Positions 677 through 34,289 of a DNA stretch of 64,000 nt are shown here, one piece after another. This DNA is from Rhizophagus irregularis (Eukaryota): assembly GCF_026210795.1 (NCBI RefSeq), contig NC_089432.1:1302001-1366000 (forward strand), given 5' to 3'. Each line of letters begins with the position of its first letter. Position 1 is the first letter of the stretch. A program made the position numbers and the translations under genes. The notes beneath the pieces were generated by a model. That model worked only from the letters and a program-made list of their open reading frames with translations. It did no database searches and was not told where the DNA came from.

Positions 677-805
677 CCAGATGAGCGTCATACCATGTAT
701 TAAAAGAAATTAATATATCGATATTTTTGCTATAAAATGGCCAAATTTTCCACGTCTCTAAAGAAGTAAATGAGATTCAAATTTATTTAGTTAGTAATTT
801 TCAAT

Positions 806-3871: not shown

Positions 3872-4283
3872 ATTAATTCGTGATCCGTATAACAAGTAGT
3901 GAAAATCACTATTCAAATTCGGGGGAATAAAAAAATTGTTTTTTGCGATGATCTGTTGACCCAGCAATCCAATTTCGATGAACAATTTTTGTTGTGTCCA
4001 CAAAATAAAAAAAAGATCATCGAAATTGGACCAATAGTAGCGATAATTATAAAACCTATTTTTAGTTCGGAGAATATCGTGAGGAATCTAGACCCGGTTT
4101 TGTAATTATCTCACGATCTATTGGTCCAATTTCGTCGATTTTTTTTTTATTTTTAATATAAAGAACGTGGAGAGTTACATAACAAAAAATGGATCACTAG
4201 AATACGAGATAATCGCAAAAAATGATTCCCCCCGAATTTGAATAGTGATTTTCACTACTTGTTTTATACGGATCACGAATTAA
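3872..4283. mobile_element. MITE with ~55-bp TIRs
   Basis: ttaattcgtgatccgtataacaagtagtgaaaatcactattcaaattcggggg is inverted at 4225-4283. Confidence 0.8.
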
Positions 4284-6504: not shown

Positions 6505-7329
6505 TCAATAATGTTCGCAAATTTGCCAATGTGAACCGATTAAGTTCGCGATTATTTGTTCCAACACTTTAATGTACTCTCGATCATTAAGTGTTGAATT
6601 TAATTCATAGGGAATGTCGGGTAAAGAATTAACTAAGGAAATGTTAGCGGTAGGAATACCAGCATTATTATTATTTTCAGCACTAGCGACTGAATTGTGA
6701 ATAGGGTACTCTCGATTATTAAGTGTTGAATTTATTTCATAGGGAATGTCGGGTAAAGAATTAACTAAGGAAATGTTAACGGTAGGAATACCAGCATTAT
6801 TATTATTTTCAGCACTAGCGACTGAATTGTGGATAGGATTTACTTTCTCGAGTTGCTTTTCAGTTACGTCACTTCCTTGTTCCGTGTAATCCATATGTTT
6901 ATCCAATAAAATTTGAATGTTATTTTTCTTATAAGTTGATTTCGCTTCCTTAACAAGTGCTTCATAAAAATCTTTTACATTCTTGGGTTCCATATTCCAA
7001 AAATTTTTAGCGATTTTAGAAACTTCACCCATAGAAGGTAATTTACAATTTTTAATACGAAATTCTCTCACTAATGCCATTCTATACGCGATAAATGCGT
7101 TTGGAAACCATTTTGGTTTGTTATTTGTATTAGCGGTTTTGATTAGATCTTTAGTAGTTATAGTTGAAGGAAAAGCTGGTTTGAGGTTAATGAATAAATT
7201 ATTGTAGTTATTCCCATTAAAATTTGTTTCGTTATTTAAATTGGAATTATCTACATGATCACTAACATTAGAATTAATAAATGTAAAATGTTTAAGACTT
7301 TTTTGTCTTCTTAATGTATTTTTAGGCAT
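6505..7329 (-). CDS. MATA-HMG box transcription factor-like protein with internal 44-aa duplication
   Basis: PKWFPNAFIAYRMAL...SKIAKNFWNMEPKNVKDFYEAL; shares C-terminal DREYIKVLEQ with 806..1366. Confidence 0.85.
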   Translation of the reverse strand: MPKNTLRRQKSLKHFTFINSNVSDHVDNSNLNNETNFNGNNYNNLFINLKPAFPSTITTKDLIKTANTNNKPKWFPNAFIAYRMALVREFRIKNCKLPSMGEVSKIAKNFWNMEPKNVKDFYEALVKEAKSTYKKNNIQILLDKHMDYTEQGSDVTEKQLEKVNPIHNSVASAENNNNAGIPTVNISLVNSLPDIPYEINSTLNNREYPIHNSVASAENNNNAGIPTANISLVNSLPDIPYELNSTLNDREYIKVLEQIIANLIGSHWQICEHY

Positions 7330-9833
7330 ATTAAATCATACAGTAAAATATTTTCAAATAATTCAAAATATTCTAGAGAATTCTATCTTATAGCGAATTT
7401 AAAATTGACATACGCGAGCTTTTTATATAATTATTTTTCGACAGGTTTATTGTAGATCATTTTTATAAAAATCAAAATAAGTGATGCGTTTATAGAAAAT
7501 TTAATATCTTCTGAACCAAACGAATCTTTACAATTATCCAAAAAAAGGAATTAAGACTCCTGAATTTCATCCAAATGGAGATTTTCCATAACTTCCGTGT
7601 TTAGTATCAAATAATTTATGTATTATTTTATTAGTCCGAAGAATAATAAAGAACTATACACTTCTACGGATGTCCGTCCGGCAACGTGACTATGTACGAC
7701 AATAAGACAAATGGCTATATATAGTGTTTTATAAAAAAAACTCTTAAATGTGAATTGATAGAATATATTTGGTTGAATTTTTTTATAGGGTTAGCTAAAC
7801 TAAATTAAGTAAATAAGCTAAACTAATTGGAGTAACACGTGATTATTTGACATGATTATATTTTTAAAAAAAATTAAATGCACACATTTTATGCAACTGA
7901 TCTAATTACAAATATAATATTTTATTCTATTTTTATCTCTAATTTTATTTTTTGTATGAATATGTAATCTATATAGTGTTCATTAACCATTAAAATATTT
8001 TTTTAAATTATGTTACTATCAGTGACATAATTTAATGTAGATTTGAGCACCTGGAGCGAGTAAGAAAATTTTAGGTTTATTTACTCAATTATAATATTTC
8101 CAATATTGAAAATAATATTATTAATGAGAATAACTCCAGAGCATATCATTATTTCAAAATTTAATTATTACCGCCGATTTAATCAAAAAAATACATAAAT
8201 TAATAAACAAAAATGTTTTCAAATTGGTGCTGAACCTTAACATGTAAAGGATGGTCCTTTGGCCGAAAAACTTCGTAAACAAGTTTTATTCGTAACTTTA
8301 TAAATATTTTTAATGAAATTTCATTATTTTTGTACATTGATCAATTTTACGAATATTTTCTCAAAATTTGGCGAAAAATCGCCATTTTATTTTGTAACTT
8401 ATGTTACACCAATTATAAAAACTTAAGTTATTATCAATTAGTAAATAATATACGATAAATTATCTTTCGTTTTCAAAAGTACGTTATTTTTGTATTAAGC
8501 TTTATCTATTACTCATCTAATTTTAGCTTTTTGAAAATCTTTTTTGCTTATTAAATTTCATGATTTAACTAAAAAAAAAATGTTTTTTATAAAAAATGCA
8601 TTTGATTTCATCATATACTTTGGGCTAAGCTGATTTTGTAATTCAGCGTTTACCCGTAAATTTCCAGAATTTTCGATCAAAATGCAAGTTTCGCAATCTG
8701 ATTGGTGCATATGAAAAATCAGCACAGATTTGTTTATATCAATCATGTTTCAACATTTACGCTCAATTTCATTATTAAAAATTTTTAAATGCAGAATATA
8801 TAATAATATAATTATTTAAAAACAAATGAACGTACATATCATGAATTAATTGAATTAAAGGATAATTATGAAAATTTAAATTATAGACGATTTCTATTTG
8901 TACGTTCAAACACGGGTTTACAAAAAAGTAAATTTTTATGCCGATTATTTAATGTTGGGTAGAATTAAATTTAACGAAAAAAAACGAAAAAAAAAACAGA
9001 TTTCCTTTGAAAATTTATTAAGAATTTTTGCGCATAATTTTTTTTTTCTTTTTAATAAGTCACGTGATACGTGTATGAACACTTAGTGTAAATTAAGAAA
9101 TTTTCTTTAAATTATTAATAAAAATCACGCGGAGATAACCAAATAATCCTCTATTAAAGTAATGTTTGTTATTTCAATATTTAATTTCATCATTAAATTT
9201 ATTTTTGATTTTGCAAACAAAGATTTATATACAGTGTATAACAAATATAATTATTTAAAAACAAATGTAATTATTCGATTTTTTTTTATGAGCATGATTA
9301 TTATTAATAAAAAATACTACAAATTAAAATTCAAACCAATTTAAATATTACTTGTCATTCATAATTTTTCATTATGTCGCATAATAGCAATAATAACAGC
9401 ACATATTTTTTATTCCAGGAGTTATTAAAATTTAATTTCCACAAAAATTTATATACGTGACACATTATATTTATTAACGATGTTATTTATACAGTTTTTC
9501 ACCGAATTATCTTATGAATAATATGGAATAATCCGTTTGAATAATCCGAATTATTCTAGATAACGAACATATGGTTTAATGATTCAATATTAAATTTTAA
9601 CTTTCATGTACCAATTATTATTCTTTAACAAAATGTCAATCATACATGTATCAATATTAAGGGTCAATTAATTTTTGGTATATACCTATATTTTGATGAT
9701 CGTACCTTACTTTTTTTAGCAAAAATATTTTACCCTATAGGGTTATCCGTAGATCCGAATATCAATCCGGATAATAGGATAGTCCTATAGAATTTATTTG
9801 CGGTTTGATATATAGTGAATTCGTTATATAATA

Positions 9834-10460: not shown

Positions 10461-10685
10461 TTCTAGATAATTTAGGCCAAATTTGTGGTGCTGGTCAAAA
10501 TTAATAATTCGCTTGACATAACCGGCACTATAAATTTGGCCTGGATTAGTATATTGCCACAGTCACATGACTGTTCATTTTAGAAAATACAAGAATATTA
10601 TATGGCTAATATATGCATGGGGGTTAAGTTCGGATACGTTATATAGTATTTTATTATAAAAGTTTATAAAAAATCGGTTTTCGGA

Positions 10686-11205
10686 GATTTCGGTAGTGAG
10701 AGCCATATTGCGGAATTTCTTGCTCGACAAATACAGTCAGTTCTTGAAGATATTGGCATTCAAAAGTTTGTAGGTATCGTGACAGATGCTGGATCAAATG
10801 TTCATTCTGCACGAAATTTAATTACTGAAAGATTTCCACATCCTCAATATTAGATATGTAGCATATTCACTAAATTTGATTACAAAAGATTTAATAAAAT
10901 ATACATTTTCAAAAAATTATTCAATGGTATACAGTTATTGTAACATATTTTAAAAAGTCACATAGACTCAAAGAACTACTAGAATTGAAAATTAAATTAA
11001 GAAAAACAGATTGGAGGTGATGGATTAAAAAACATATTTGGATACGAGATGGATGACTGTTTATAAGATGTAGATTCCAATTTCTTAGCTAGAAATTTGT
11101 TTCAAAGAAGTATAACTTTATTATTTTAATTTTATTATTTATTTTGTAAGATAAAATTGTAAATTTGCAATCAATTTTATTTGTTAAATATTTCACTAGG
11201 TTATC
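10686..11205 (+). pseudogene. hAT-family transposase relic, 5' part
   Basis: Translates SHIAEFLARQIQSVLEDIGIQKFVGIVTDAGSNVHSAR, then (frameshift) NIRYVAYSLNLITKD (degenerate CxxH) and DTRW; intron ~11110-11199. Confidence 0.8.
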
Positions 11206-11714
11206 TTTTTTTTTTTAAAAACTGTAACGCATCTTATTACTGTTGGGCTAAAACCCTGTAGTGTACAAGATACCTGGAGCGTAACTTGCAAATCAAGACG
11301 CATCCCCATAACAGAGTTTATCCTAGTCTAATGCATAAAATCAAATAAATAAAATAAAACAAAAGAAGAACAAACCCATTCCTATGTCTAACCTAAAACT
11401 AGACTATGGTGGACCTAACTAAAATTAATCAAAACATTTTGTAGGAAAAAAAATTACGAGAGAAAATTTATAATAAGACTGAAACCAAAGCTGTAAAAAC
11501 AGATGAATCCCAATAGATCCACGCCCAGTAAACATTATTTCAACCTTTTCCCCCCATCATTATTGACCCTACAAAAAAGAAAAATTAGTATACTATTCTA
11601 TTAATTTACATTTGTGAGAAATTTTCTATCGGAAATAATTTTTTTAACGTGAATCACGTGACTTCGATTAACAAATGTAAATATCTACACTCTTTGCTTC
11701 GATCCTTTTCCTAT
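11206..11714 (-). mobile_element. 3' part with A11 tail of a minus-strand retroposed element (host of the LINE)
   Basis: T11 at 11206-11216 directly follows atttcactaggttatc (11190-11205), which recurs as atttcactag-ccag-gttatc at 20771-20790. Confidence 0.7.
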
Positions 11715-11861
11715 GGGCTTATTTAAAAAAACTCTTTCCGACGATCGTAAAATACCAAAAATTCACAGAAGAAATTTTCGTTAAAAAACACATTTCTTTA
11801 TAGACAAGTACCATTTTCTTCACCAGTTTTGGCCTCTACGTTCTCTTCGGAACATTATCAT

Positions 11862-14096
11862 ATGAGTTTTAATATTGGAAAAAAATTTTCAAAAAAATTC
11901 CTAAAAAACATAGAAAAATCTTATCGTTCGGTAACTAACGAAGAAGATATATACTATACGTACTCTTCACCAAACACAGTTAACAATATGTCTAACAGTA
12001 AACCTAATAACCTTCCTGAACCAAATATCGATAAAGTACCTACGGACTGTCCTATGGAAGAAGTTATAGCTACTTCTTCAACTCACGACCTCTCTCACAG
12101 TGAAATTGAACTCACATCACGTGACCTATCAAAAAATGATACTCACACGCAAACACCAATCAACGAAAACTTGACTAATATGGAGGAAGATCCTTCGGAA
12201 CCTAATCCAGATAAAGGAAAATCACCGGAATCACAAACAGCCACACAATCAAACTTACCAAATGCGATTCCAATGACCGTGCTAACTGATATTTTTACAC
12301 AAACATCACAAGCTCTTAACAAAGCACACAAAGGATTTATTCCCAGAGATAGTTTTAAATCTGATCTTTCAAACAACGAAATAATTAACTTACTAAAAAC
12401 GGCATTTATCCGTGACAGTAACGCCTTCAAATTTGAATCCAACGTAACTTCCACATACAAATATTTTACTATATATTTTAGAACATGGGACTCACTTAAG
12501 CAATATATAGAAAAGAGCCCTGATAACCTTAAACAGGTTAAAATATACGAATTAACCAATGAAGCTATCAACACCTTATTGGATCAAAAATTCGCTAACT
12601 TGGACGCAGCAGTCATAAAAATTATGGACATACCTTATAATTATGACACATCAATGCTTATTAAACACCTTGCTATCAAGACCAACAGCAATGTTATAGA
12701 CCATAAAGAGCTCAAAAAACCGCCAAGAAAATTACCTAACCGCAACAATCGTGGACGCCCGATTTTCATCAAACCGGCATACAAACAACTAATCGTACGC
12801 TTCGATAAACAATCCGCCTACGATTATTTCATGAAAGAAAACTATTGGAGCTTAGAAATAGAAAATTTCGTAGTAAGAATTCTACCAGGCAATCAGAATG
12901 ACCCTGAGTATCAAAAACGCACCAGTAAATACTTTAAAATTACTGGACTACCACTCAACACAACAGCTATGGATCTTAATCCACTTATCAAACATGTATA
13001 TGGACGTACTTGTACGTTCACACAAACGACTCGATATTCAACTATGAAAAACGCTTACGTATATGTTTCACCAGAAAATTACCCTGATAACGCTACGGGA
13101 GGCGCGTCTTCACTATTCGAGAACCACAACATCTATATCATTCCAGGGCACATATCAGCCAAAACTTGCAACACTTGTGGATCCCCTTTACATATTTCTC
13201 AAAACTGTGACGATATAAACTTCAAAACAACAAGTGATAACCGTAAAATATATAACAAAAGATTTATTGATAGAAAAGAAGAAAAAATCACTATCCACGA
13301 GAACCACAAAAACAGATACAATCACGTGATTTCTCTTAACGCTAATAAAAACTCAAACTCATCACAAACCAACAACAAACGTTCATCATCACAAACAGAT
13401 ACCCACAATATAAGATCACTACCTACTAAATCACAATACCCCCGTCAAACAAGACAACCATACAACAAAACACACAATATGAACGATATTAATAACTGGG
13501 ACGAACCCTCTACATCTACTCCTCAATACCAGCATCAGCACACATCAAATGATGAAATAGACAAAAGAATCATAGAGCTAGAGAAACAAATACAAAATCT
13601 CCTAAATAATATTAAAACTTTACAAGAAGATAAAGTTAAAACGGACAAAACAATCGCTGACATCCATCACAACGCTAGCCTAATGAACACATCACTTACG
13701 AATGTGAATACAAGACTAGATAAATATGATTCAATCCTCGAACGTCTTACCACTAACATTAGTTTACTTAGTAAGAAAGAAATTTTATCCACACAAGAAC
13801 GCCCTCGTAAAATATCCAAAAAAATTACACCATATGATCAAACTTCGTACAGATCCACCAAATCCAAATACAACCTTAGAAATAACAAAGACTACAACAA
13901 TTCAGCTGAAGATAGTGAATTTGTCCCGGTAACAGAAGATGACACTGATGCCCCTGACGACACCGCTATGTCGGACGGTGCCATCTTCGAAGGCATAATT
14001 GATAAAACACTAGATGAACCCGTGAAAAATGACACTTTTACCGTCAAATCTTATAACCCATTGAACCTCCTCCCGAGCTTCAACGCGACACGCTAA
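11862..14096 (+). CDS. LINE ORF1 (gag-like nucleic-acid-binding protein)
   Basis: CCHC knuckle CNTCGSPLHISQNC, C-terminal coiled-coil-like heptads, homology to 60278..62554. First ATG at 11862; true start may be 11988. Confidence 0.85.
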   Translation: MSFNIGKKFSKKFLKNIEKSYRSVTNEEDIYYTYSSPNTVNNMSNSKPNNLPEPNIDKVPTDCPMEEVIATSSTHDLSHSEIELTSRDLSKNDTHTQTPINENLTNMEEDPSEPNPDKGKSPESQTATQSNLPNAIPMTVLTDIFTQTSQALNKAHKGFIPRDSFKSDLSNNEIINLLKTAFIRDSNAFKFESNVTSTYKYFTIYFRTWDSLKQYIEKSPDNLKQVKIYELTNEAINTLLDQKFANLDAAVIKIMDIPYNYDTSMLIKHLAIKTNSNVIDHKELKKPPRKLPNRNNRGRPIFIKPAYKQLIVRFDKQSAYDYFMKENYWSLEIENFVVRILPGNQNDPEYQKRTSKYFKITGLPLNTTAMDLNPLIKHVYGRTCTFTQTTRYSTMKNAYVYVSPENYPDNATGGASSLFENHNIYIIPGHISAKTCNTCGSPLHISQNCDDINFKTTSDNRKIYNKRFIDRKEEKITIHENHKNRYNHVISLNANKNSNSSQTNNKRSSSQTDTHNIRSLPTKSQYPRQTRQPYNKTHNMNDINNWDEPSTSTPQYQHQHTSNDEIDKRIIELEKQIQNLLNNIKTLQEDKVKTDKTIADIHHNASLMNTSLTNVNTRLDKYDSILERLTTNISLLSKKEILSTQERPRKISKKITPYDQTSYRSTKSKYNLRNNKDYNNSAEDSEFVPVTEDDTDAPDDTAMSDGAIFEGIIDKTLDEPVKNDTFTVKSYNPLNLLPSFNATR

Positions 14097-14207
14097 TTGT
14101 TGATCCTAAATCCTCAACATATATCTGGACTTATTTACGATTCTCCCTTTTTGATTTCAACGTTTTAATTGTTTTTTACACATCATTTTAATTAAAATAT
14201 TTTTTTT

Positions 14208-17200
14208 ATGGAATACACCAATTTTATTAACACGGTTGGCGTCGAAAACCAACCTTCATTTCAAGTGCCTACTAATTTTTCATCTTCTTCTTCAAAAAAT
14301 ATAGAAAAAACACAAAAAAATACATATAATCAAAATACCAAAAACAACTATAACAATAACAACAACAATAGTCACCACAGCTTAGGCTCTACATTTCATA
14401 CTTCTGATACAAACGACTTACCTAACGAAGAACACATTACTAATTTACACGTTGTTAACACTGATAATGACTATTTTATAGATTACCTTAAAATTGGAAC
14501 TATCAACATCCAAGGAGGTTATAAAGCCAAATTAATTGATATTATCAATTACTTCGTCACACACAACTTTAACATTCTTGGCTTAACAGAAACACAATAT
14601 TGTCACAAACATGAAAATAATAAATTAGTCGAAAGACACCCTCACCCAACTAATAAAAATTTATCTATTTATATAATTCTAGACGCTAATGGAGATAATA
14701 AGGGCTCTGGCGTCGGGATAATGCTTACCAGTACTCTATACCAACACGTACATCAAATACGTTTTTACAAAGGTCGCGTGTTAAATATTGAATTGGGCTT
14801 CAAACGTGACCACAAATTGAACATCACATGTCTATATTTACCTGCTGGAAGAGACAAACAAACCAATATTATTAAAAAAGACTGCAATCAATTCTTCGAC
14901 CAACTATACAGTACACAAACCATTAATGATGATAATCACAAATACTACAATCTTATCATGGGGGACCTCAATTGTTACCCAAAAGAGAAAAATAATCTTA
15001 ATCACCATATTATTCAGATGGCTAAATTGAAAGGCTTTAAAGACATGGCAAAATTCCATGCTGAAAACCATACTCCAGAAATAACTAGGCTCACACATAG
15101 AATAGACTATATATTTGGAAATACCAATATCCTTAACGCATCAATTCATACCTTTGCACAACAAATCCCACCATCACATTTCACTAGCGACCATAAAGCA
15201 GTGATTACATTATTACAAAATGACCTTTTCAAACGTTCACGACATCGTCAAGGTAACAGACGATATGAACAAAAAGAGAAACCAAATTACTCATTAATGA
15301 ATGATGATTTATGGGAAAATTACAAATCTCATTCAAAAATATATTTTAAAAACCGTTTCAAACATATAGATTTAAACAATATTACGACACAAGATGATTT
15401 GGACCATATTTGGAACATATTTGAACACAGTCTACATAACATTAAAAAATCACATATTCCTCAAAAGAAAATAACACCTCAAGAACACCATCATTTATAC
15501 CCTCTACACATTCGACAACTGAACCACCACGTGATCACTTTATATAAAACAAAACAATTTCTTAATTTAAAACATATTTATATCAGGAATAAAATGAATA
15601 AACCAACAGATAAAACCTTACTTATCTCACTTATTCCCGATTCAATGTGGACCTTATATTTTAAAAATTGGAAAGTTCATCGTGATCACATACAAAAAAT
15701 AGCACGTTCAATGGACTACGACATTATATTAAATAATTTTATAACACAAGAAGATTTCTATGCACAAAAAACAGAAATTTATAAACTATATAATTATTTA
15801 AAACAAAAAAGAAATGATGAATTATCACAATGGAAAACTGAACGTATTGAACATTTTATCAATCAAAGAAATTTTGATTTATCAACTAATCAAACAAAAA
15901 TGATCAACTCTATACTTCAACGAAAACCTAGAAAAATTACTTTAGACCGATTAATTATCAAAGATAACAATAATGTTAATGTATTTACTAACAACCCCCA
16001 AATTATACAAAAAGAAGCTATTAAACATTATCAAAATATAGGTAAACATGATAATCAAACATCATACCATTCTATCGACGATTTACCCTTACCATGGCGC
16101 ATGATATATGATCCGGCCAACCACCATTCAAATAATGATTGTTGGGATATACTTCAACAACAGATTGATATTTCTGACGTATTAGCCGTCTTGAAAAATT
16201 CTCCTCTTAACAAAGCACCTGGTCCTTCACAAATTACTTATGAAGACTTGAAACACCTACATAAAGACGTATTAATATTACTTACTCAGATCTTTAATCT
16301 ATGTATCCATTTAGATACGATACCCACAAAATGGTGTGACGCTCTGCTATTCCCAATACCGAAGCCACATGACTGGGATAGTAAACTTACGAATACAAGA
16401 CCTATTACCCTTTTGGAAACGACAAGAAAATTGATGGTCTCAATTTTTTCTCAAAGATTAAATCATTCATTAGCGAAACACAACATTTTACAATTCAACA
16501 ACCGTGCGGGCGTTCTGGGACAATCATGTTTAGAACCACTGTTCCAAATACAACATTCAATTGAACATGCCCGCATTTATAAGAAACCACTATGGATTGC
16601 CATTCAAGATTTGTCAAAGGCTTATGATAGAGTCGATATTACATTATTACGATTAGCTCTGCAACGTATTAAAATCCCGGAAAAGATAATCACTTTTTTT
16701 ATTAATTTATTTTCTAACCGGTACAACTCCATCATTTTACCAAATGGAAATTTAGCATCATATAAGGTCTTACAGGGTATAGACCAAGGCGAAGTAGTTT
16801 CACCGCTTTTATGGAACATATATTACGACCCCCTGTTCTATCACATCAATCAACTATCACATCTTGCTTATAAGTGTGATACTACGAAAATCAAAAATAT
16901 TTATCACAAAGATTCCGACATCACTCACCATTTTGAATTATCTCTGGTCGGATATCTCGATGACACCACCTGGTTTAGTCCCTCTCTAGAAACACTTGAA
17001 ACTAAACTAGACATTGCACATTCATTTTATGATTTAGCAAAAATTAAAGTGAATATTGATAAATACAAAATCCTTACGAATCAGCGATTAGGTAACGATA
17101 GAAAAATCGTACAACTCACCATCAATGGACAAATTACAGATGTTGATATCGTCTCAAAATATAAAGGCACAAGAATCTTAGGATTATATATCAACCCTTT

Positions 17201-19091
17201 AGATAGACACCAACAAACGTTAACCAAAGCACGTTCGATCATTATGAATCACGTAATCACAATGCGCCACAAAAAAATTGCACATGCTCACGCAATATAT
17301 ATTATTAACAAAGTTATTTTTCCAAAGTTGGAGTATCTTTTTCAGCACACGATCTTAAATTATACCCAAGTACAGAAACTGGTTGTACCTCTCAAAAAAT
17401 TATTCAAAAAATTTTTTTCTTTACCACTTAATACGGCAGACAACATCATTTACAATAACATGTATCCACACATTGATAATTTGATGGACCTACTAGTCAA
17501 ATCACAATTAAATGCACTATCGGCTCTATTCAATACTGATATCCTAAGACCTATAGCGATCCAAAAACTGGATATTTTAACTCATGAACTTTGGTATCCA
17601 GGAATACCTCACGATACTAATAAATATATAGGTAAAATCTCCTCACCAAGCTATTTATCAAAGAGTTTATCTCTACTACAACAATATCAAATTCACTTGG
17701 ATCCCACCATTAGCTATGGCATCATAGGGGGACATACACCAATAGTGGAATACCTTCCGAACTTATCTTCTAATGATTACAAATCTTTACGAAATAAGAG
17801 GATCATGTATATAGACCAACTAGTATCCGCAGACGGTAACTACCTTCTGACTTGGAATGAAGTAAAACGTCTAAACAATAATAATTTTAGAGGACCTAAA
17901 CCAAACTGGTTTAAAGTATTAGAAAATGAATTTACCCTAAGTAATTATCGTACTTTGACTTATCCGCTTAACGACAATTACACAATTCCTGCACGTTTAC
18001 AACAAATCCCTGATCAATCCCTGGGTAATCATAGAAAACGTAATGAATGGACATATCATTGGGACGCTAGATTACAAACTTGTATTATGGGAAAAACATA
18101 TATACAAGATACCGATACGAATAGTTCCATTACTATCATGGAACATTATTTACCTTATAATAATTCTTTAATATCAAATAATATTACCCCTCAGATACCA
18201 CATTCTTTACCCTTAATTTTAACTCCTTGTCCAGGTTGTCATCTTAATGACCATAGTTTAATTTTACAAGACGCACGTATTAAATGTTCAATTTCTACAC
18301 GTACAAATCGTCTTTCAACCTTCAACACTTTTAATCACCTAAACCAAGAACACAAAAGATTTAAAAATCTTCCCCTGTCTAAATATTATGTTAGCACCAA
18401 ACCTTTACATCAAATTAGACATAGTGCATATAATATTTACTTATCTCAACATAACGTTAATATAGTAACTCCCATCACCACAACATTAGAAATTCTATCG
18501 TTACATGATGAAAATCATGTTTTACGACAATTATCGTCCGTTATAGATTCTGCCCTTTTATGTGACGATAATATTAAATTAATTTTAATAGATATAGCTT
18601 CAAAATTTTTTTCTTATACTAATTTTCAATTTTATTCAGATGGTTCTGTTTCAGATATAGGTACAATTAATAGTAAATCTGGGTTCGGCTGGATTCAGAC
18701 AGATCCCCTTTTACCACAACTTTCTTTTTCGGGATCTACAATTTTTTTCCCTTCTTCTTTTAAAAGCGAAAGCTTTGCTATTTTGACAATTTTATTAGTT
18801 TTACCTCCCAACGCCACATGTGAAATATTTACTGATTCACAAAATTGTATAGATACCTTTAATCAACGACTAGGTTCACCCTCAATAAGTCCCCGACGTA
18901 GGCTGAAACAAAATAATTTCTTATTATGGGATCTTATAATGTGGTTAATATCACACCATCACCTCACGATCCAACTGAGAAAAGTTAAAGGACATAGTAA
19001 CGACAAGGCTAATGATCAAGCAGACGCCCTAGCTAAACAAGGCAGATATTCGCTCGCTCCGATCATCATTAATCACAAATTCTTTCATTAA
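14208..19091 (+). CDS. LINE ORF2: APE endonuclease, reverse transcriptase, RNase H (ends at an in-frame TAA)
   Basis: APE motifs TINIQG, GLTET, MGDLN, RIDYIF, SDH; RT motifs KAPGP, RPITLLE, QDLSKAYD, QGEVVSPLLW, YLDD; RNase H motifs YSDGS, FTDSQ, KVKGHS, NDQADALAK. Confidence 0.95.
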   Translation: MEYTNFINTVGVENQPSFQVPTNFSSSSSKNIEKTQKNTYNQNTKNNYNNNNNNSHHSLGSTFHTSDTNDLPNEEHITNLHVVNTDNDYFIDYLKIGTINIQGGYKAKLIDIINYFVTHNFNILGLTETQYCHKHENNKLVERHPHPTNKNLSIYIILDANGDNKGSGVGIMLTSTLYQHVHQIRFYKGRVLNIELGFKRDHKLNITCLYLPAGRDKQTNIIKKDCNQFFDQLYSTQTINDDNHKYYNLIMGDLNCYPKEKNNLNHHIIQMAKLKGFKDMAKFHAENHTPEITRLTHRIDYIFGNTNILNASIHTFAQQIPPSHFTSDHKAVITLLQNDLFKRSRHRQGNRRYEQKEKPNYSLMNDDLWENYKSHSKIYFKNRFKHIDLNNITTQDDLDHIWNIFEHSLHNIKKSHIPQKKITPQEHHHLYPLHIRQLNHHVITLYKTKQFLNLKHIYIRNKMNKPTDKTLLISLIPDSMWTLYFKNWKVHRDHIQKIARSMDYDIILNNFITQEDFYAQKTEIYKLYNYLKQKRNDELSQWKTERIEHFINQRNFDLSTNQTKMINSILQRKPRKITLDRLIIKDNNNVNVFTNNPQIIQKEAIKHYQNIGKHDNQTSYHSIDDLPLPWRMIYDPANHHSNNDCWDILQQQIDISDVLAVLKNSPLNKAPGPSQITYEDLKHLHKDVLILLTQIFNLCIHLDTIPTKWCDALLFPIPKPHDWDSKLTNTRPITLLETTRKLMVSIFSQRLNHSLAKHNILQFNNRAGVLGQSCLEPLFQIQHSIEHARIYKKPLWIAIQDLSKAYDRVDITLLRLALQRIKIPEKIITFFINLFSNRYNSIILPNGNLASYKVLQGIDQGEVVSPLLWNIYYDPLFYHINQLSHLAYKCDTTKIKNIYHKDSDITHHFELSLVGYLDDTTWFSPSLETLETKLDIAHSFYDLAKIKVNIDKYKILTNQRLGNDRKIVQLTINGQITDVDIVSKYKGTRILGLYINPLDRHQQTLTKARSIIMNHVITMRHKKIAHAHAIYIINKVIFPKLEYLFQHTILNYTQVQKLVVPLKKLFKKFFSLPLNTADNIIYNNMYPHIDNLMDLLVKSQLNALSALFNTDILRPIAIQKLDILTHELWYPGIPHDTNKYIGKISSPSYLSKSLSLLQQYQIHLDPTISYGIIGGHTPIVEYLPNLSSNDYKSLRNKRIMYIDQLVSADGNYLLTWNEVKRLNNNNFRGPKPNWFKVLENEFTLSNYRTLTYPLNDNYTIPARLQQIPDQSLGNHRKRNEWTYHWDARLQTCIMGKTYIQDTDTNSSITIMEHYLPYNNSLISNNITPQIPHSLPLILTPCPGCHLNDHSLILQDARIKCSISTRTNRLSTFNTFNHLNQEHKRFKNLPLSKYYVSTKPLHQIRHSAYNIYLSQHNVNIVTPITTTLEILSLHDENHVLRQLSSVIDSALLCDDNIKLILIDIASKFFSYTNFQFYSDGSVSDIGTINSKSGFGWIQTDPLLPQLSFSGSTIFFPSSFKSESFAILTILLVLPPNATCEIFTDSQNCIDTFNQRLGSPSISPRRRLKQNNFLLWDLIMWLISHHHLTIQLRKVKGHSNDKANDQADALAKQGRYSLAPIIINHKFFH

Positions 19092-20183
19092 AGCTCCCTA
19101 GCGCTTTTCAACTACAATCATATTAGCGTAATTGATCGTAATTTACGCAAATGGAGTAACATACCCATTCAATCTAGAATTTTTAATATGGCTATGAACA
19201 ACAGCTCACTATTACCCATTAACCATCAAATAACATACGGCGACATCGATTGGATTTACACCAAACAATGGATCAATTCTAATCCTTTTGACATGCCCAC
19301 GTCATCTAAATTATCTAAAATTCAATCTAATAGACTCAAGAAATCCACTTTTACATATCCAACAGGCAACATTTTACAGCGCAATTACCCCAACCTTTAT
19401 CCTCTAGGCCGTATCCACTGTACAGAATGCTCGATCGATGAAGATACTAATGCACATATTGGTTTATGCCCATCTCATCGTCAATCTATAACGTCGCTCC
19501 TAACCAAATTCAAAAAGAATCTAATTGATCTTCTTAGGAACGAAGGCACTAGCAATTTATCCTTTGACATAGAATCAAGGGTCAATAATTCTAATATGTT
19601 CAAAGTCCTCCCAGACGTCTTAGACGTGGCTCGTCTACTGGATACTACAGATCACTTATGTATCCCACGAGAACAACCTTGGATTTTATTATTACACCAC
19701 CTCATCCCTCGGGATTTAGCTGTATTTTTTGATAATTATTTCAGCAAAGCGGCGGAAAGGTCGCGTTTCCTGATACAATATGTCACCGATTTTATTTCGG
19801 AACTGACAACTATCACTTGGTCATCACGTTCCCGCTCGTTTAAAAAATGGGAAAAAAGTCTAGACATTACTTTAAAGAAAAAGAAAAATTATCGAAAACA
19901 CACCGGCATTACTTCTGCCAGGGCGTCTTCATCGGCCACCACCTCACCTCCTAACGTTACCCATAAGCGACGAAATCGATATACTCGTTATTATCACAAC
20001 AAAGTTCTACCATATTACAAAGAAAAAGTCACTTTTGACGTGTCCGCGTGTATACGCTGGACGACCTGTAATTTTTTACATAGTGGTTCTTGGGAATCTT
20101 ATAGAGATAATCTCTTATTTAATTTAGATAATTTCTCCCCTGTACAATCCTTTTTAGATTCACTTAGACCACATATAACTTAG
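19092..20183 (+). CDS. In-frame C-terminal continuation of ORF2 with Cys/His zinc motif
   Basis: Open in the ORF2 frame straight after the TAA (SSLALFNYNH...); contains CTECSIDEDTNAHIGLC. Confidence 0.8.
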   Translation, partial: SSLALFNYNHISVIDRNLRKWSNIPIQSRIFNMAMNNSSLLPINHQITYGDIDWIYTKQWINSNPFDMPTSSKLSKIQSNRLKKSTFTYPTGNILQRNYPNLYPLGRIHCTECSIDEDTNAHIGLCPSHRQSITSLLTKFKKNLIDLLRNEGTSNLSFDIESRVNNSNMFKVLPDVLDVARLLDTTDHLCIPREQPWILLLHHLIPRDLAVFFDNYFSKAAERSRFLIQYVTDFISELTTITWSSRSRSFKKWEKSLDITLKKKKNYRKHTGITSARASSSATTSPPNVTHKRRNRYTRYYHNKVLPYYKEKVTFDVSACIRWTTCNFLHSGSWESYRDNLLFNLDNFSPVQSFLDSLRPHIT

Positions 20184-20410
20184 TGCTAAAGCCTTTTCTT
20201 TGGTTTGTTGGGATGTGATGTCGTGTTAGGGACTCCTCCGGGTTTGTTAAAGGTACCAGAGTGGCGCTGTCCTCGGGCGGTTTGATTATAGCTTAGTATT
20301 AGATAGCGTTCGACTTTAGTTTTATCTTTTGTTCTTGTCTATCTTTCTGTAATCTTGTTCACGTGGTTTTTAAAAATAAAAATAAAATAAAATCGATCCT
20401 TTTCCTATTC

Positions 20411-20547
20411 CAGGGTGGCGCTGTCAGATTTGGCGGTTTGGTACACGATTTAATTTAGAATTACTTTAAACTTACGAATAGTTTGTCCCTGTAATTTGTA
20501 TCGTGACTTTGTTCACATGGAAATTAAAAATAAAAATAAAAATAAAA
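20411..20547 (+). mobile_element. 5'-truncated related LINE 3' end with (TAAAA)n tail
   Basis: Shares gtggcgctgtc, ggcggtttg, ctgtaat and ttgttcac(g/a)tgg with the 3' end of the full element; flanked by 18-bp tcgatccttttcctattc at 20393-20410 and 20548-20565. Confidence 0.8.
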
Positions 20548-20563
20548 TCGATCCTTTTCCTAT

Positions 20564-20770
20564 TCTTGTTGTTTCTTCTTCTTCGTCGGAATCTTTTCAT
20601 TCTCCACTTTCTTCGGCTTTGAATTTTCAGCCCGTGGCGATTCCAGTATCGGTTTTTTCTCTCCGATCTCTCTTTCACCAGTCAAACGATTCTCATCCTT
20701 TAGTCTCGTTGTGAAATCATCATTGAGCGAGGTATATTCTTGCAAAATTTTGCTTTGTTCCGCTAGACTA
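20564..20770 (-). mobile_element. 5' part of the minus-strand host retro-insertion
   Basis: Lies between the last LINE TSD and the outer TSD; minus strand is purine-rich with open Lys/Arg/Glu-rich frames. Confidence 0.6.
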
Positions 20771-20784
20771 ATTTCACTAGCCAG

Positions 20785-22026
20785 GTTATCAATGAAACTC
20801 CAATATTATTACGAGTAAGGATACAAGCACCCCTTTTTTGCACTTAATGCCGGCCAAGATCCTCATAATTCTGGCCATAATAGTCATAATTCTGGCCAGA
20901 TGGATTTTTTAATGATGTTTATGATTTTGCAAATATTATGAAACCTATCAGAGACGCTATTCTCATAGCTGGTTGTTGTTTTTCTTTGGCATGTCTTGGT
21001 CAATCGATTAACAAGATTCCTGATGAAAATGAAAATGCAAGGTTTCGTCAGCATGCAATAATGCGATAAAATCCTTCATTGAACGTTTTAAAATGTACGA
21101 TTTTGATGAATATCTCTTTCATATTATTTATATTGTTCCTGGGTACAAAAGTAAAAAAAATGTTAATTATTTTTTAAAAATTGGCAACTAATAAACAGGT
21201 TTTGGTGTAAAATGTTCGAGTTCAAAGTACAGCTGCACGTATTTAGCAGCAAATGTCAAAGGATCCCAATATTGCTGCTTACCTTATAGAATATGTTTAT
21301 TCAAAAAAAAAAGTCAGCGGAAACACTTCTAGCATAAATTGGCGAATTTCATTTACAACAGAATCATATAATATGCCATTCTCTTCACAAGTAAATACGG
21401 CCATTTAGTTGGTGGAAAATGTGCGCACCTACTCTCAATTAAATTGTTTTCAACGCAGCAAGTTGTAAACGGATTTGGTCAATCTGTGGATGGATGGTTG
21501 GTAAAACTAAGGAGAACAAAGATCCATTCCTATTATATTGCCAATAGTAAATCTGAGTTACCTAATCTTAGTAAAGATCGAACTGCTGAGGAACTTCGTA
21601 CAATTTTGAATTATGCCCATCTTTGTGATGATGAAAGAATATGTTGATGATTATAACGAAGAGGAAATGATAAAGTTGGAGTCCACCTATTGATAATGAT
21701 TGTGAACAGGTTCCATCTCAAGATTTGGAAATTATAAATGTGCTTGATTTGGATTCAATGGATTCAATGTTTAAGGATAAATCAAATAATATAACGGATA
21801 AGCAATTAGAATTAATGAATTTAAAGGAAGATGATTTTGATCCAGATTTATTAGTTCAAAAATTTAATTATAATTAATATAATAAGGTTTCGGTTATAAA
21901 GTGCTCCAAATCTAACAGTATATATAGTTTACCTAATTCTGAACTTCACACGTATATTATGAAATCAGCTGTAACCGGTAGTAAATGTCTTAACCGGTTA
22001 ACCATCTTAACCGATTCCAAACTCTA
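20785..22026 (+). pseudogene. hAT transposase relic, 3' part and probable right terminus
   Basis: Resumes the exon gttatc|aatgaaact; fragments WWKMC, WSICGWMVG, KIHSYYIANSKSEL and an acidic tail; ends in ttaaccgg repeats and ccaaactcta (TAGAGTTTGG on minus). Confidence 0.7.
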
Positions 22027-23154
22027 ATTTATTTATTGATTTACAGCAAAATTCGGACACTTGAGAAATTTCATTGTCGGGTAGCCGAGTTACTCGGGTA
22101 GAGAAAAGTATAAATAGCACGTGGCATGAGTATAATAGTGTATATTAAATAGTATATCAGATTATATATACCGTATAAATAAGATACTGAAACTTATTTA
22201 CTTTGAGAAATAAAAATAAAAATAAAACCGTATAAATAAGATCCTATATAAATAATATACTGTATAAATATAAAGAATAGTGTAACATACGTTTATGTCC
22301 GTATATTTTGGATTTTGCTGTAATTAATATCTCACATTATTTTATTTTAGGTTATCACTAATTTAATATTCATTAAATTTTGTTGTAAAGTCACCATGGC
22401 ATGAGGCATTTTTATACTGTATATACAGTACTAAACCGATTTAAAAGTGCAAAAAAGAAAGAAAAACATTTGTACAGTATACACGCAATATATTATGTAG
22501 ATGTACTAGTTTCATTTAGACAGGCTCTGAGGCTTTACTTTTTATCTAGTTGTAGCAGTACAGTATTGAATACAAGTTTGCAATGTACAAATAGAAACAT
22601 AGCGCAAATAACAATTGAACGTACGAATAGTATCTATTTCGCGAAATTAGAATAAATTAACTGTCGATACAATTCTTCAATCCGATTGCGTGTATGTATA
22701 AGTTCTCTCCATTTTAATTTAATATTATTATTATTATATCTTCACCACAATCTTTATTTTCTAGTTATCAACCAATCAAGCCATTTTTCAGCAATCAAAT
22801 ATTTTTCCTTGAGGTGGAGAAATCTAGAAAACTTGGTTTGTACCTATGAAAGGCTTTTTGTTTGTTTTATTTAAAAATTTTTTTTACACCTGGTACGTCT
22901 AAAATAAATTATTTTGTACAATAGTTTACTAAAAAAAAAAAATAATTTTTTCAATTTTCTGACAAATGATTGATATATATATTTTAATATAATTCACTAT
23001 ATTAAAAATTACTATATACAATTTAATTAATCGATAATTTAATATCGTGTAACATTTTTTTAATGGAAAATTAAATATTTTTTGTTATACATAATCAATT
23101 TAAAAAAAACAAAAATTCATTTGTTCGAATTAAAATAAAATAATAAAAATTAGG

Positions 23155-25265: not shown

Positions 25266-27537
25266 ATGAAAATTAATGACGAAAGTAAACTAATTAATTG
25301 GATTGAAGATGCTATTTCCAAGAGTCTTATTAGATATTATGATTATCAATATTTTAATGATATTCAAGAAGTTGGTTCTGGAGGGTTTGGTCAAGTGTCC
25401 CGTGCGAAGTGGAGAAAGAATGACCAATATTTCGCCTTGAAATCTTTTTTCAACCTAAACCACATTACTATTAATGAAGTAATTCATGAGGTAAATTTTC
25501 TTTTTTTCAGTATTATAATTAATTATGATAGATTTTTTTTAATATCATTCTCGTAATATTTTATTAGATCAAATTGCAACGTGAAGTAGATTTTCATGAT
25601 AATATCATTAGATTTCTTGGAGTTACAAAACTCGTTTCAGGTATAATAAAAGAATAATTAAAATAATTTTTCCTTTTTTTTTAAAAAAAAAAATTATTAT
25701 ATGCATAAAATTTTAATTATTTACAATTTTTTTTTCAAAATAGAAAATAAAAAAGTGAAAGATTATTTATTAGTATTGGAATATGCAAACCAAGGAACTC
25801 TTAAAAATTATTTAAAACACAATTTCGATAATCTTACTTGGAATGATAAGTATAAATTGGCTCGTCAGTTAGCTTGTGCTGTTTTATGCTTGCATGATGA
25901 AGGAATTTTACATAACGACCTGGTAATTTATTAAATTTTTTTTTATAATATAAATTAAAATTTTTTTTTTCTATTTTCTTATTAACTCAATGAATTCTTT
26001 TTGTTTAATGTATCTATATATATAGAATTCCGCTAATATACTCGTCCATCAACATGATATTAAACTATCCGATTTTGGATTATCAAAAAGAATCAATGAA
26101 TCATCTAAACTTTCTAAAGTATTTGGGGTAATTCCTTATATAGATCCAAAAAAATTTAGTGGTACACGTACACAAATATATAAATTAAATGAAAAAAGTG
26201 ACGTCTATAGCCTTGGAATATTATTATGGGAGATATCAAGTGGTCATCCACCCTTTTCTAACGAACCATATGATCTTTGTTTAGCTTTGGAAATTTCGAA
26301 AGGTTTAAGAGAAGAGATTGTTCCGAATACATCTCCCCACTATGTCAAGCTTTATACTGGTAAAATGATCGTTAAATTTATTTTATCTTATTTTTTTCTC
26401 ATTTAATGTTATCATTTATTAATTCATATATATTTGCTCTTAGAATGTTGGGATGGAGAACCATATAATCGACCAACTACAAGAGAAATAGTTACAAGGC
26501 TAAAAGATATTATTTCAGGAAATTCTCCATCGACGTTAAAAGAAATACCGATAATTAGTTTGAGTACTCCGGATAGTTCTCAGCATGGAGATTTATCAAA
26601 GTTAATCGAAGATTTGCATAAAATGAATACACGTGATTTGGACCGATTAGATACAAGTACGACCAGATCATTAAGTATTTATTATTCAATACCAGAAATG
26701 AAAATGAGTGAAACATTTAGTCATATAATAAGGCCAAATAATGAAGTAACCGAAAAGGATTTGGGTACGAATGTCGATGAAATAGTAAAATTTCATTTAA
26801 AATTATTAAATGAAGGGAAAGATTCAACTACAAGAAAGCGACATGTTCTCGAGTATCTTGAAAATAATGAAATTACTAAGGAAGAAATTTACAATTGGCT
26901 ATTAAATAATCAAAATAATTCAAACAATATTTTTTTATTAGGATATTTTAATTTTGTTGGAACCATAAAGCCAAAAAATTATGAATTAGCATTTTATTTA
27001 TTTATGCACGCTAATGCAGAAAAAGGGCACATATTGGCAATATATTATATAGGAGCATGTTATTTATATGGGTCCGGAATCATAAAAGATGAAAAATTGG
27101 CCTTTAAATTTTACAAAATCATTGCTAATGAAAATCATACAATTGGACAAACAAAAATTGGTTATTTTTATGAAAAAGGAATAGGTGTTGATAAAAATGA
27201 AAGAATGGCTTTAGAATGGTATATGAAAGGTCATAATAATGGAAATTATTTAGCAACTTATGATCTTGCCCAATGTTATAGATATGGAATAGGTGTTAAT
27301 ATAAATTATGAGAAAGCTTTTGATTTATATCAAAAGGCCGCGAACTTTATTCCTATGGCTCAATATGAACTTGGAGTAATGTATGAAAATGGTGATGGTA
27401 CTATAAAAAATATAGATCAAGCAATTGATTGCTACACAAAATCCTTTGATCAAGGATATCAAAAAGCTCAAGTTAGATTAAAAGTACTTACAAAAATTAA
27501 GAATAGAAAGAGGAGTGATACGTGTAAAATAAATTAA
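25266..27537 (+). CDS. Tyrosine-kinase-like protein kinase with C-terminal Sel1-like repeats (5 exons)
   Basis: Exons ~25266-25490, 25568-25640, 25744-25922, 26026-26359, 26444-27537 with GT-AG introns; GSGGFG, ALK, HNDL/NSANIL, DFG, DVYSLG; Sel1 repeats such as AQYELGVMYENGDG. Confidence 0.9.
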
Positions 27538-28217
27538 ATGTTTAATTGTCATAATTTATAAATTTTTTTTTTCGATATACTTACTACATGTAAATAATAT
27601 TTATATATATATCATATATTTTGTATTCTTTTATATTATGTATTTTTTTATCAATAAATAAAACTTGTATCCAACTTTTGATTTTTTTGTGCATTCATTT
27701 TATATTTAAACACTCCTATTACTTAGTTTTGTAATATAAATATTTATGGTTTACACCGGATAAATCACTTATTCAGTACTTCGTGCCGAAAAACTAATCA
27801 TAATTATTTTTTCTTTTTTTATTTTACTTCCTTATTTTCACCGAAGGATGTTGTCTTAGGGCGGCTTTTCGTTAGTTTTTTTATGCTCTACTTATAGGAA
27901 TTATTTTATATAGTTTCTTGTAGACTGTACTAATGATGTTTCTTTCTGTGAAATAAAAATAAAAAATAAAAATTATGCATTCAAACCTTGCTGTATAAAG
28001 TATGAGATTTTTTTTCAAATAAGGTTTATATACTGCCTGGTAAGTTATCTATTAAAATAAAAAATAGCTTGCGGAATTATTGATTATATTCATTACAAAA
28101 TATTTTATTTCGTTTTTTTTTCGCACAGAATAAATCTGTTATTCTTAAAAGTTTAGCATCAATCGTAATGACAGTGTTCGTCGTAACAGTTACAGCGGTT
28201 ATTATTGATACTGGGCG

Positions 28218-28439
28218 AGGACCCCGAGCTATATATATAGAGGTAAGGTGCAGCCAAAAAAAATTACTATTAGCTCTACGCATTTTTTCAGGGCCGGAAT
28301 TATGATAATGCCAGTCAGCGTCTAAAAAGGGAAATAAATTCCGGCCGGAATTATCTATAAAAGGAAAGATCTACATGATTATTTTGGTCAATTCTACGCA
28401 AACCTTTACCCTACCTTTTTATGTATAGCTCGGGGTCCT
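28218..28439. mobile_element. MITE with 8-bp TSD
   Basis: actgggcg|aggaccccgagctata ... tatagctcggggtcct|actgggcg. Confidence 0.85.
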
Positions 28440-29021
28440 ACTGGGCGCCGCAGTGTTGTACATGGGACATTGTCCGGCGATTTTTTGTGGACACGGAAAT
28501 CAATGTCTGCGTTCATAATCCTGGCGATAAATAGCTTCGAAAGTAATATTCGAATATTTCGATTTATTTTTGAATTATCACTTTGATTCTCTTTTTATTT
28601 TATATTTCATTTTTAAAATGATGTTTATTTTATCAATTGCAATGGACATTAAAATCAATTTGTATTTAAGCTAAATCATAAATTATAAATTATAAAGAAA
28701 TATTATAATTACATTAACAAATTCTTTATAAAAAATTTCAATTATTTTTTTGCGTTATCTTCTATTTATTATTTTATCACGTCATTTTCATACATACATA
28801 TAAATATATATTTTTTTTCAAACTTTTGTTCCAAATAATAATTGTTTATTAACTTTTACAAAGAATATAGTATACTGTTACTATTACTACGCGTTTCACA
28901 TGTAATAATTATTTATCACTTTTGTTGTCTATGTTTTATATTAATCCTAAGTGATATAATTTCGTTATGATTTAATTTATAGTTAAATCGAACTAAAATA
29001 TCTTAATTTACGTTACATGAA

Positions 29022-34038: not shown

Positions 34039-34289
34039 TGACCATTCTTAGATAGATAATTTTTACAAGGGGATCGTTTGCATCGCCCATGAAGCATTGC
34101 ACTGTGCTAATTGGTGTCAGAGAGATTCTTTGTCTTGTAAAAATTTACCCTTTCTTGATCATTTGACCATTCTTAGATAGATAAATTTTATAAGGGGATC
34201 GTTTGCATCGCCCATGAAGCATTGCACTGTGCTAATTGGTGTCAGAGAGATCCTTTGTCTTGTAAAATTTACCTTTCTTGATCATTTGA
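34039..34289. repeat. Tandem duplication, 2 x ~125 bp
   Basis: tgaccattcttagatagataa...ggggatcgtttgcatcgcccatgaagcattgcactgtgctaattggtgtcagagaga...tttcttgatcatttga occurs twice. Confidence 0.9.

What the first reader, a model, noticed from the sequence alone, without database searches (positions are those of the whole stretch)
11699..20565. Two LINE insertions stacked at the same nucleotide: candidate sequence-specific retrotransposon targeting another retroelement
Seen: tcgatccttttcctat occurs three times (11699, 20393, 20548). The second and third copies each directly follow a (TAAAA)n tail. The layout is TSD16-[8.7-kb LINE]-tail-TSD18-[137-bp diverged relative]-tail-TSD18, so two non-identical elements share the same 3' junction. 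The target lies inside a minus-strand poly(A) insertion. Known: APE-encoding LINEs can be site-specific (R1, Tx1 clades) and then accumulate in tandem at their target. Inference: a target-specific APE-RT-RNaseH LINE family using another retroelement as a safe haven, inserted antisense to it. I do not know of this being described in these fungi, but I cannot search.
Basis: partly seen in the sequence, partly recalled or inferred. Interest (0 to 1): 0.88.

Follow-up and report, generated by a model that had tools for sequence, protein, structure and literature searches.

The report
Short retroelement landed in LINE's tail
A full-length jumping gene in a root-symbiotic fungus has a short relative stacked right behind it; the short one likely inserted into the long one's A-rich tail, an ordinary nesting event rather than proof of a site-specific element.

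Summary
The layout is real: one 16-mer three times (11699, 20393, 20548; 0.06 expected) around an 8.7-kb L1-like APE-RT-RNase H LINE (A) and a 137-bp 3' end of a sister family (B), nested antisense in a 5'-truncated poly(A) insert inside a hAT-like relic, in a Glomeromycota fungus. Site specificity is not supported. The one true B copy found elsewhere (L001; 1 of 6 pattern hits) has unrelated flanks and its own ~20-bp duplication beginning AAAAT at a TTT|AAAA site. The same reading fits the window: B's duplication is AAAA plus 17-18 bp, cut at the last T|AAAA of A's tail, which re-copies A's 3' duplication and makes the third 16-mer with no recognition of it. Contigs of four runs confirm the 5' junction and hint that related 3' ends far outnumber host copies (weak). 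Flanks of other A copies could not be read, so specificity of A itself is untested (about 12%). New member of a known kind; low interest.

The parts
10647..11205 (+). hAT-like DNA transposon relic, left part (outermost layer of the nest)
   Evidence: DUF659 E=2.9e-6, below the curated cut-off; link of DUF659 to hAT elements is recalled; a contig in 4 of 4 runs joins 11205 to 20795, lacking the whole nest
11190..11205 (.). left target-site duplication of the host insert (16 bp)
   Evidence: matches 20771-20790 with a 4-base insertion in the right copy
11206..11714 (-). host insert, 3' part: about 500 bp after the stop codon, then poly(A)
   Evidence: T11 at 11206-11216 next to the duplication; no protein match among 127 fetched proteins plus two window ORFs; no Rfam match
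11699..11714 (+). 16-mer copy 1: 5' target-site duplication of LINE A
11715..20392 (+). LINE A, 8678 bp, L1-like, apparently full length
11751..14096 (+). ORF1 (stop to stop 781 aa; first ATG 11862), CCHC-like knuckle, likely RRM-type; no Pfam hit
   Evidence: Atlas neighbours with zf-CCHC/RRM at 0.84-0.87, a lead only
14196..20183 (+). ORF2: APE endonuclease (about 14490-15239), RT (16356-17159), RNase H (18627-19043), C-terminal Cys/His knuckle; one in-frame stop at 19089-19091
   Evidence: PF03372 E=1.4e-5, PF00075 E=7.6e-11, PF00078 E=1.4e-19; P0001 and P0071 read through the stop position
20371..20392 (+). tail of A (TAAAAA TAAAAA TAAAA TAAAA); holds 4 T|AAAA sites
20389..20410 (+). inferred 5' target-site duplication of B: last AAAA of A's tail plus 16-mer copy 2 plus TC (21-22 bp)
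   Evidence: identity with 20544-20565; start point inferred from L001
20410..20547 (+). element B: 137-138 bp, 3' end of a sister LINE family or its SINE-like short partner, with tail 20525-20547
   Evidence: 105 of 115 bases identical to L001 965-1079, 76 of 106 to A's 3' end
20544..20565 (+). inferred 3' target-site duplication of B, holding 16-mer copy 3 (20548-20563), the original 3' duplication of A
20548..20770 (-). host insert, 5' part: C-terminal end of a multi-copy Rhizophagus protein; its stop codon (20560-20562) lies inside the 16-mer
   Evidence: 7 homologues at 61-83% identity; ORF 20560-20805
20771..20790 (.). right target-site duplication of the host insert

Best explanation
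A full-length L1-like LINE (A) sits inside an older retroposed fragment with a 16-bp duplication, and a short element of a sister family (B) likely inserted later into the last T|AAAA of A's tail, copying the tail end plus the next 17-18 bases and so creating the third 16-mer. Shown: the three copies, the nesting, the domain content, B's membership of a separate family, and an unrelated insertion site for another B copy. Inferred: the order (A, then B), the nick position, and priming by pairing of B's UAAAAA tail with the nicked T-rich strand in target-primed reverse transcription. The 16-mer needs to be recognised by neither element.
For: (1) L001, the 1 homologous locus of 6 hits of a flank-blind pattern, is a B copy (105 of 115 identical) whose flank matches the 16-mer at 3 of 16 positions. 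(2) L001 has its own duplication, 17 of 20 ungapped at 937-956 and 1094-1113, beginning AAAAT after TTT, the 5'-TTTT/AA-3' type of site given for L1 (PMC1950540, passages); its non-tail 13 bases have 0 matches at 1 mismatch in the 64-kb window. Read the same way, B's duplication in the window also begins AAAAT: 2 of 2 sites. (3) Both tails end in TAAAA although the repeat unit is mostly TAAAAA, and the identity of copies 2 and 3 runs 9 bases into the tails, as expected if B's tail end is a copy of A's. (4) The profile of A and 43 homologues scores best on human L1 ORF2p (153 bits) and L1-EN (90 bits, APE1-type enzymes up to 67); no entry named for TRAS1 or R1 among the 60 shown of 128; the fold agrees. 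(5) Weak: relative to the junction contig, summed depth is 1.4-3.6 over the host next to the target but 7-65 over the A/B 3' ends in 4 runs; the tool warns that depth is no copy number. (6) Weak: the junction contig ends 40-44 bases inside A in 4 of 4 runs, which by de Bruijn logic (k=31 assumed) means no other copy shares the 16-mer plus A's first 15 bases.
Against: Only one other B copy was read, from another sample, and none of A. A duplication of 21-22 bp is longer than the 16 bp of A and of the host and above the usual limit of about 20 (PMC13295347, passage); L001's duplication can also be read as 13 bp (3 mismatches in the 20-bp reading, 2 of them at the tail boundary). No allele with A but without B was seen, so the order is not shown. 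A's own site (GCT|TCGA) is not of the T|AAAA type. The target lies at a conserved spot (the stop codon region) of a multi-copy host family (P0122 reads a similar peptide across it), which a targeting element would need.
Confidence: 0.68

Rival explanations
1. One integration event, two RNAs: after copying B RNA the reverse transcriptase jumped to the upstream target overhang, copied it back to the first nick, and the unsealed 3' end primed a second round on A RNA. The same nucleotide is reused automatically, without sequence specificity.
For: Explains the identical junction with duplications of 16 and 17-18 bp, close to the 16 bp of the host; A and B share 3' motifs (76 of 106), so A's ORF2p could bind B RNA. 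Template jumping to the target is described for Zorro3 (PMC3956500, passage).
Against: Does not explain why both tails end in the same out-of-phase TAAAA or why L001's site begins AAAAT; needs a rare double event; I found no paper showing it (not searched for specifically; mechanism is my inference).
Confidence: 0.15
2. One reading: family A encodes a sequence-specific endonuclease that cuts this site at the stop codon of a multi-copy retroposed host, inserts antisense, and once mobilised a B RNA in trans to the same site.
For: Two junctions at one non-A-rich nucleotide if duplications are read as 16 and 18 bp; host family is multi-copy in Rhizophagus (7 homologues); precedent Tx1L in Tx1D (PMC1950540, passage); A's endonuclease has an unusual, nearly missing hairpin loop; flanks of other A copies were not read.
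Against: B's other copy is off target; related 3' ends appear to outnumber host copies (weak); no second 16-mer-plus-A junction in the contigs of 4 runs (weak); a sister 3' end in 4 of 4 runs continues 117-137 letters past 20366 with no listed piece or joint into the host (tables cut, weak); the distant relative at about 60115 has no 16-mer upstream; tail-plus-target pattern found 0 hits in viral contigs (uninformative since the family is absent there).
Confidence: 0.12
3. The 155-bp repeat is a local tandem duplication, gene conversion, fixed terminal repeat of the element, or an assembly artefact.
For: No listed contig spans the two 3' junctions; tails are slippery.
Against: B is 91% identical to an independent copy elsewhere but 72% to A's end while the 18-mers are identical; L001 lacks the 16-mer; the 16-mer is host coding sequence; the 5' junction is at about single-copy depth in X3 and X6.
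Confidence: 0.05

Closest known systems
L1-clade LINEs and SINEs inserting at TT|AAAA sites, including tandem Alu insertions at A-tails
   Same: APE-RT LINE with 16-20 bp duplications; short partner at a T|AAAA site next to an older element. [quoted passage not shown]
   Different: Tail is a TAAAAA repeat, not poly(A); ORF2 has RNase H; conserved 3' end shared by A and B; endonuclease hairpin loop much shorter than in human L1.
Grem-LINE1 of Mucor circinelloides (10.1101/706580, passages)
   Same: L1-like non-LTR element of Mucoromycota with zinc-finger ORF1 and APE-RT ORF2.
   Different: Grem-LINE1 is confined to pericentromeres and no RNase H is named in the text (0 occurrences); relationship not tested by a tree.
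Zorro3 of Candida albicans (PMC3956500, passages)
   Same: Fungal L1-clade element reported to integrate at poly-A sequences.
   Different: Other phylum; no evidence of close kinship tested.
Tx1L of Xenopus (Tx1 clade) and R1Bm (PMC1950540, PMC13295347, passages)
   Different: There copies share the target; here the only other copy read (B family) does not. Tx1L has an 11-residue hairpin loop, A has almost none.
Unclassified Rhizophagus APE-RT-RNase H proteins (RirG_196760, RirG_241980 and others)
   Same: 76% identity to A's ORF2; the family is already in public annotations as hypothetical or RNase H-like proteins; LINEs are listed among common TEs of these fungi (PMC11952901, passages).
   Different: No paper in my 8 answered searches described their ends, tails or target sites.

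Membership tests
APE-type non-LTR retrotransposon (LINE) | ORF1 plus ORF2 with APE endonuclease and RT | tested here: met
   PF03372 and PF00078 above cut-off; model pLDDT 85 matches L1 ORF2p
APE-type non-LTR retrotransposon (LINE) | 3' A-rich tail and variable-length target-site duplication | tested here: met
   tail 20371-20392, 16-bp duplication
L1 clade | RT and endonuclease group with L1 in a phylogeny | tested here: inconclusive
   best PDB profile and fold hits are human L1, but the PDB holds few clades; no tree with named clade references was built
L1 clade | nick at 5'-TTTT/AA-3'-like sites | tested here: inconclusive
   fits B in L001 and, by inference, in the window; does not fit A's own site or the host's
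Target-specific APE LINEs (Tx1, R1 clades) | independent copies share one target sequence | tested here: not met
   for B: 1 of 1 other copy has unrelated flanks
Target-specific APE LINEs (Tx1, R1 clades) | independent copies of A share the target | tested here: inconclusive
   no other A copy with readable flanks; only weak contig hints against
Target-specific APE LINEs (Tx1, R1 clades) | target lies in a multi-copy sequence | tested here: met
   7 homologous host proteins in R. irregularis assemblies; depth suggests few close copies per genome
Target-specific APE LINEs (Tx1, R1 clades) | endonuclease nicks the target specifically in vitro | not testable with these tools
   hairpin loop has 4 residues between the conserved T and R-I-D against 10 in L1-EN; no verdict, since R1Bm also has a short loop (PMC1950540)
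SINE (for B) | fixed 5' end with an RNA-derived Pol III head, 3' end shared with a LINE | tested here: inconclusive
   3' end shared; two copies start within 8 bases of each other; no Rfam match; 6 contigs in X6 continue upstream, so 5' truncation of a longer element is as likely

The most novel reading that the evidence does not exclude
Family A is a sequence-specific APE-RT-RNase H LINE of arbuscular mycorrhizal fungi, with an endonuclease that has almost lost the minor-groove hairpin yet cuts one site at the stop codon of another retroposed family and inserts antisense there: a target-specific APE LINE lineage outside the Tx1 and R1 clades, and in fungi.
Probability: 0.12. Interest if true: 0.7.

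Novelty: new member of a known kind. Interest (0 to 1): 0.22.

Why it matters
As most likely read, it is a clean four-layer nest that shows how a tail insertion mimics site specificity, and it gives the first hints on ends and target sites of a LINE group that is abundant in mycorrhizal fungi but whose ends I found in no paper of the library searched. If A were target-specific, it would add an independent origin of site specificity among APE LINEs (only Tx1 and R1 are listed as such in PMC13295347) and a possible new targeting endonuclease for gene insertion.

Tried and rejected
No whole genome is held for this window, so copies could not be collected directly. Viral contigs: 0 hits for the 3'-end pattern and the tail-plus-target pattern; 0 confirmed relatives for the ORF2 C-terminus, RT and alignment A1 (46, 9 and 104 pattern hits). 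Genome contigs: 0 pattern hits and 0 of 80 confirmed. Metagenome contigs: 6 loci, of which 5 were dropped as chance matches (no blastn or tblastx match to the window, GC 40-55%; three are the same sequence). A close view of contig ends at the 5' junction was not obtained (one search gave no result), which leaves open the flanks of other A copies. Cluster members of host and ORF2 proteins could not be listed. Four look-ups in earlier findings returned nothing. Target as a structural RNA gene: no Rfam match in 11000-21000. Host as a proven LINE ORF1: not shown; P0126 has no Pfam hit of weight, Atlas scores 0.78-0.82 are leads only, no fused longer form among 2305 candidates, no match to A's ORF1. 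A single-sequence PDB search with the endonuclease gave only chance hits. The TCGATC motif at about 60160 is not the target: it aligns with A's internal 5' UTR. No phylogeny with named clades was built, as no labelled reference set was available. The joined empty-site sequence was not searched. No supplements were read.
Full report
Observation. The 16-mer occurs exactly three times in the window, at 11699, 20393 and 20548, with no further match at up to 2 mismatches; 0.06 matches are expected and 0 of 100 shuffles reach 3. Copy 1 shares 16 bases with the others, copies 2 and 3 share 18, and their identity also runs 9 bases upstream into the tails. The tails are built mostly of TAAAAA units and both end in TAAAA.

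Setting. The window carries HMG-box genes and Sel1-kinase genes, and ORF2's best homologues are Rhizophagus irregularis proteins at 76% identity (133 hits, 120 listed), so this is a Glomeromycota fungus. No whole genome is held. Twenty of 24 listed runs hold half or more of the words of 11000-20990; four from four studies were laid.

The nest, outside in. (1) A hAT-like relic (DUF659, E=2.9e-6, under the cut-off); a contig in 4 of 4 runs joins 11205 to 20795 and so lacks the whole nest. (2) A minus-strand, 5'-truncated insert of about 730 bp with poly(A) and a 16-bp duplication (11190-11205; 20771-20790 with a 4-base insertion). It encodes the C-terminal end of a multi-copy Rhizophagus protein (7 hits among 59 candidates, 61-83% identity) whose stop codon lies inside the 16-mer. 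That this protein is a LINE ORF1 is a lead only. (3) LINE A, 11715-20392, with ORF1 and an ORF2 holding APE, RT and RNase H. This copy has one in-frame stop at 19089-19091, where P0001 and P0071 read through. A profile of A and 43 homologues scores best on human L1 ORF2p and L1-EN, and the model (mean pLDDT 85) matches L1 ORF2p first; no tree with named clades was built. (4) Element B, 20410-20547, 76 of 106 aligned bases identical to A's 3' end.

The test of specificity. I scanned the metagenome collection with a pattern made of the shared 3' motif plus tail, blind to the flank. Of 6 loci, 5 have no similarity to the window and were dropped; L001 is a true B copy (blastn 92.6% over 136 bases; 105 of 115 in the body). 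Its flank matches the 16-mer at 3 of 16 positions, and the best match anywhere in L001 has 5 mismatches. It has its own duplication, 17 of 20 ungapped (937-956 and 1094-1113), that begins AAAAT after TTT; the 13 non-tail bases have 0 matches at 1 mismatch in the 64-kb window. This is the 5'-TTTT/AA-3' kind of site given for human L1 (PMC1950540, passages). So B is a separate family, not a local duplicate of A's end, the 16-mer is not a fixed part of it, and it is not tied to the target. This is one copy, from another sample.

Mechanism. Read as in L001, B's duplication in the window is the last AAAA of A's tail plus the 16-mer plus 1-2 bases, 21-22 bp, also beginning AAAAT. A nick at the last T|AAAA of A's tail would expose a T-rich 3' end that can pair with B's RNA tail, and the duplication re-copies A's 3' target copy. 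The result is 16-mer, A, tail, 18-mer, B, tail, 18-mer, with both 3' junctions at the same base by construction. It also accounts for both tails ending in the same out-of-phase TAAAA. A's tail offers 4 such sites, and the window has about 7.5 per kb, so tails are ordinary targets; longer tail-to-tail pairing may favour them (inference). Tandem Alu inserts are the known parallel (PMC3415434, passage citing El-Sawy and Deininger 2005; details of that paper are recalled, not read). The order and the nick position are inferred, not shown.

Weaker evidence from contigs. The 5' junction is a single contig with 0 other letters in X1, X2, X3 (11108-11754/11758) and X6 (11375-11758), so it is real and shared. 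In X3 and X6 its depth equals that of an exact flank contig (15.5 and 14.5; 6.58 and 6.06), whereas exact contigs inside A reach 24-31 and 17.6-17.9; in X2 the flank contig is far lower (9.56 against 70.4), so that run does not give the same check. The contig ends 40-44 bases inside A in 4 of 4 runs, which suggests (k=31 assumed) that no other copy shares the 16-mer plus A's first 15 bases. Summed depth over the junction depth is 1.4-3.6 for the host beside the target, 2.7-17 for one RT bin, 0.7-8.6 for a late ORF2 bin and 7-65 for the 3' ends. The tool warns that depth is no copy number, that it skipped the tail repeats, and that its tables are cut (15 of 46 joints, 24 of 927 loose ends shown). 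A sister 3' end present in 4 of 4 runs runs on 117-137 letters past 20366 with no listed piece or joint into the host, and no joints were dropped at the repeats in X6. These are hints against a family confined to this target, no more.

Against my reading. No other A copy with readable flanks was obtained, so specificity of A is untested. The 21-22 bp duplication is long beside 16 bp for A and the host and the usual limit of about 20 (PMC13295347, passage). A's own site is not A-rich. The target lies at a conserved spot of a multi-copy host (P0122). A's endonuclease has only 4 residues between the conserved T and R-I-D, as have P0001 and P0002, while most of the 44 rows have longer loops; L1-EN has 10 by the numbering in PMC1950540, where deleting this loop lowers activity and changes specificity, Tx1L and TRAS1 have longer loops, and the site-specific R1Bm has a shorter one than L1. 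The model puts a short low-confidence helix there. This may explain A's non-T-rich site but does not decide for or against specificity.

Rivals. One event with re-priming at the unsealed nick (0.15) fits the duplication lengths better but not the tail ends. A site-specific A that once carried B in trans (0.12) remains possible. Local duplication, fixed repeat or artefact (0.05) is disfavoured by the 91% versus 72% identities and by L001.

Literature. Eight searches were answered; none listed a paper on ends or target sites of Glomeromycota LINEs, but most subscription journals and Repbase are outside the library. Read as passages only: PMC11952901 (LINEs common in these fungi), 10.1101/706580 (Grem-LINE1), PMC3415434, PMC12840619, PMC1950540, PMC3747384, PMC3956500, PMC13295347, PMC9977147. 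No supplements were read; the TE library of PMC11952901 may hold these families. Four look-ups in earlier findings gave nothing.

Verdict. A real, cleanly readable nest of retroelements; most likely a short element inserted into the tail of an L1-like LINE. New member of a known kind, interest 0.22; the target-specific reading has about 12% and would deserve 0.7.

Noticed in passing
window about 60115-64000 (+): A second LINE of the same group: ORF1 60278-62554 (28% identity to A's ORF1 over 639 columns), APE domain from about 62800, 5' UTR alignable with A's. Its upstream flank is AT-rich, lacks the 16-mer and abuts a palindromic element; the 3' end is outside the window.
   Followed up: partly
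window 15050-15115 (endonuclease of A): The hairpin loop before the R-I-D motif is almost absent in A, P0001, P0002 and short in several R. clarus relatives, but long and varied in others: rapid evolution of a target-reading loop within one fungal LINE group.
   Followed up: partly
window 20410; L001 957-965: Both B copies start within 8 bases of each other at a short hairpin-forming stretch, the same point where similarity to A's 3' end begins; 6 contigs in X6 continue upstream. Either a SINE-like short family or a preferred truncation point.
   Followed up: partly
window 59626-60069, 57607-57772, 3873-4283: Long imperfect palindromes, likely MITE-type or fold-back elements.
   Followed up: no
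window 791-1366 (+) and 6505-7335 (-): Two diverged HMG-box paralogues in inverted orientation; the second has an internal 132-bp tandem duplication.
   Followed up: no
window 25293-38093: Cluster of three kinase/Sel1-repeat paralogues, one on + and two on -.
   Followed up: no
window 11701-13168: The 5' end of A draws more depth than much of ORF2 in the laid runs, hinting at internally deleted or ORF1-only derivatives.
   Followed up: no
window 22211-22227 and 49928-49942: Other TAAAA(A) runs that could be tails of decayed elements; no match to the A/B 3' ends.
   Followed up: no
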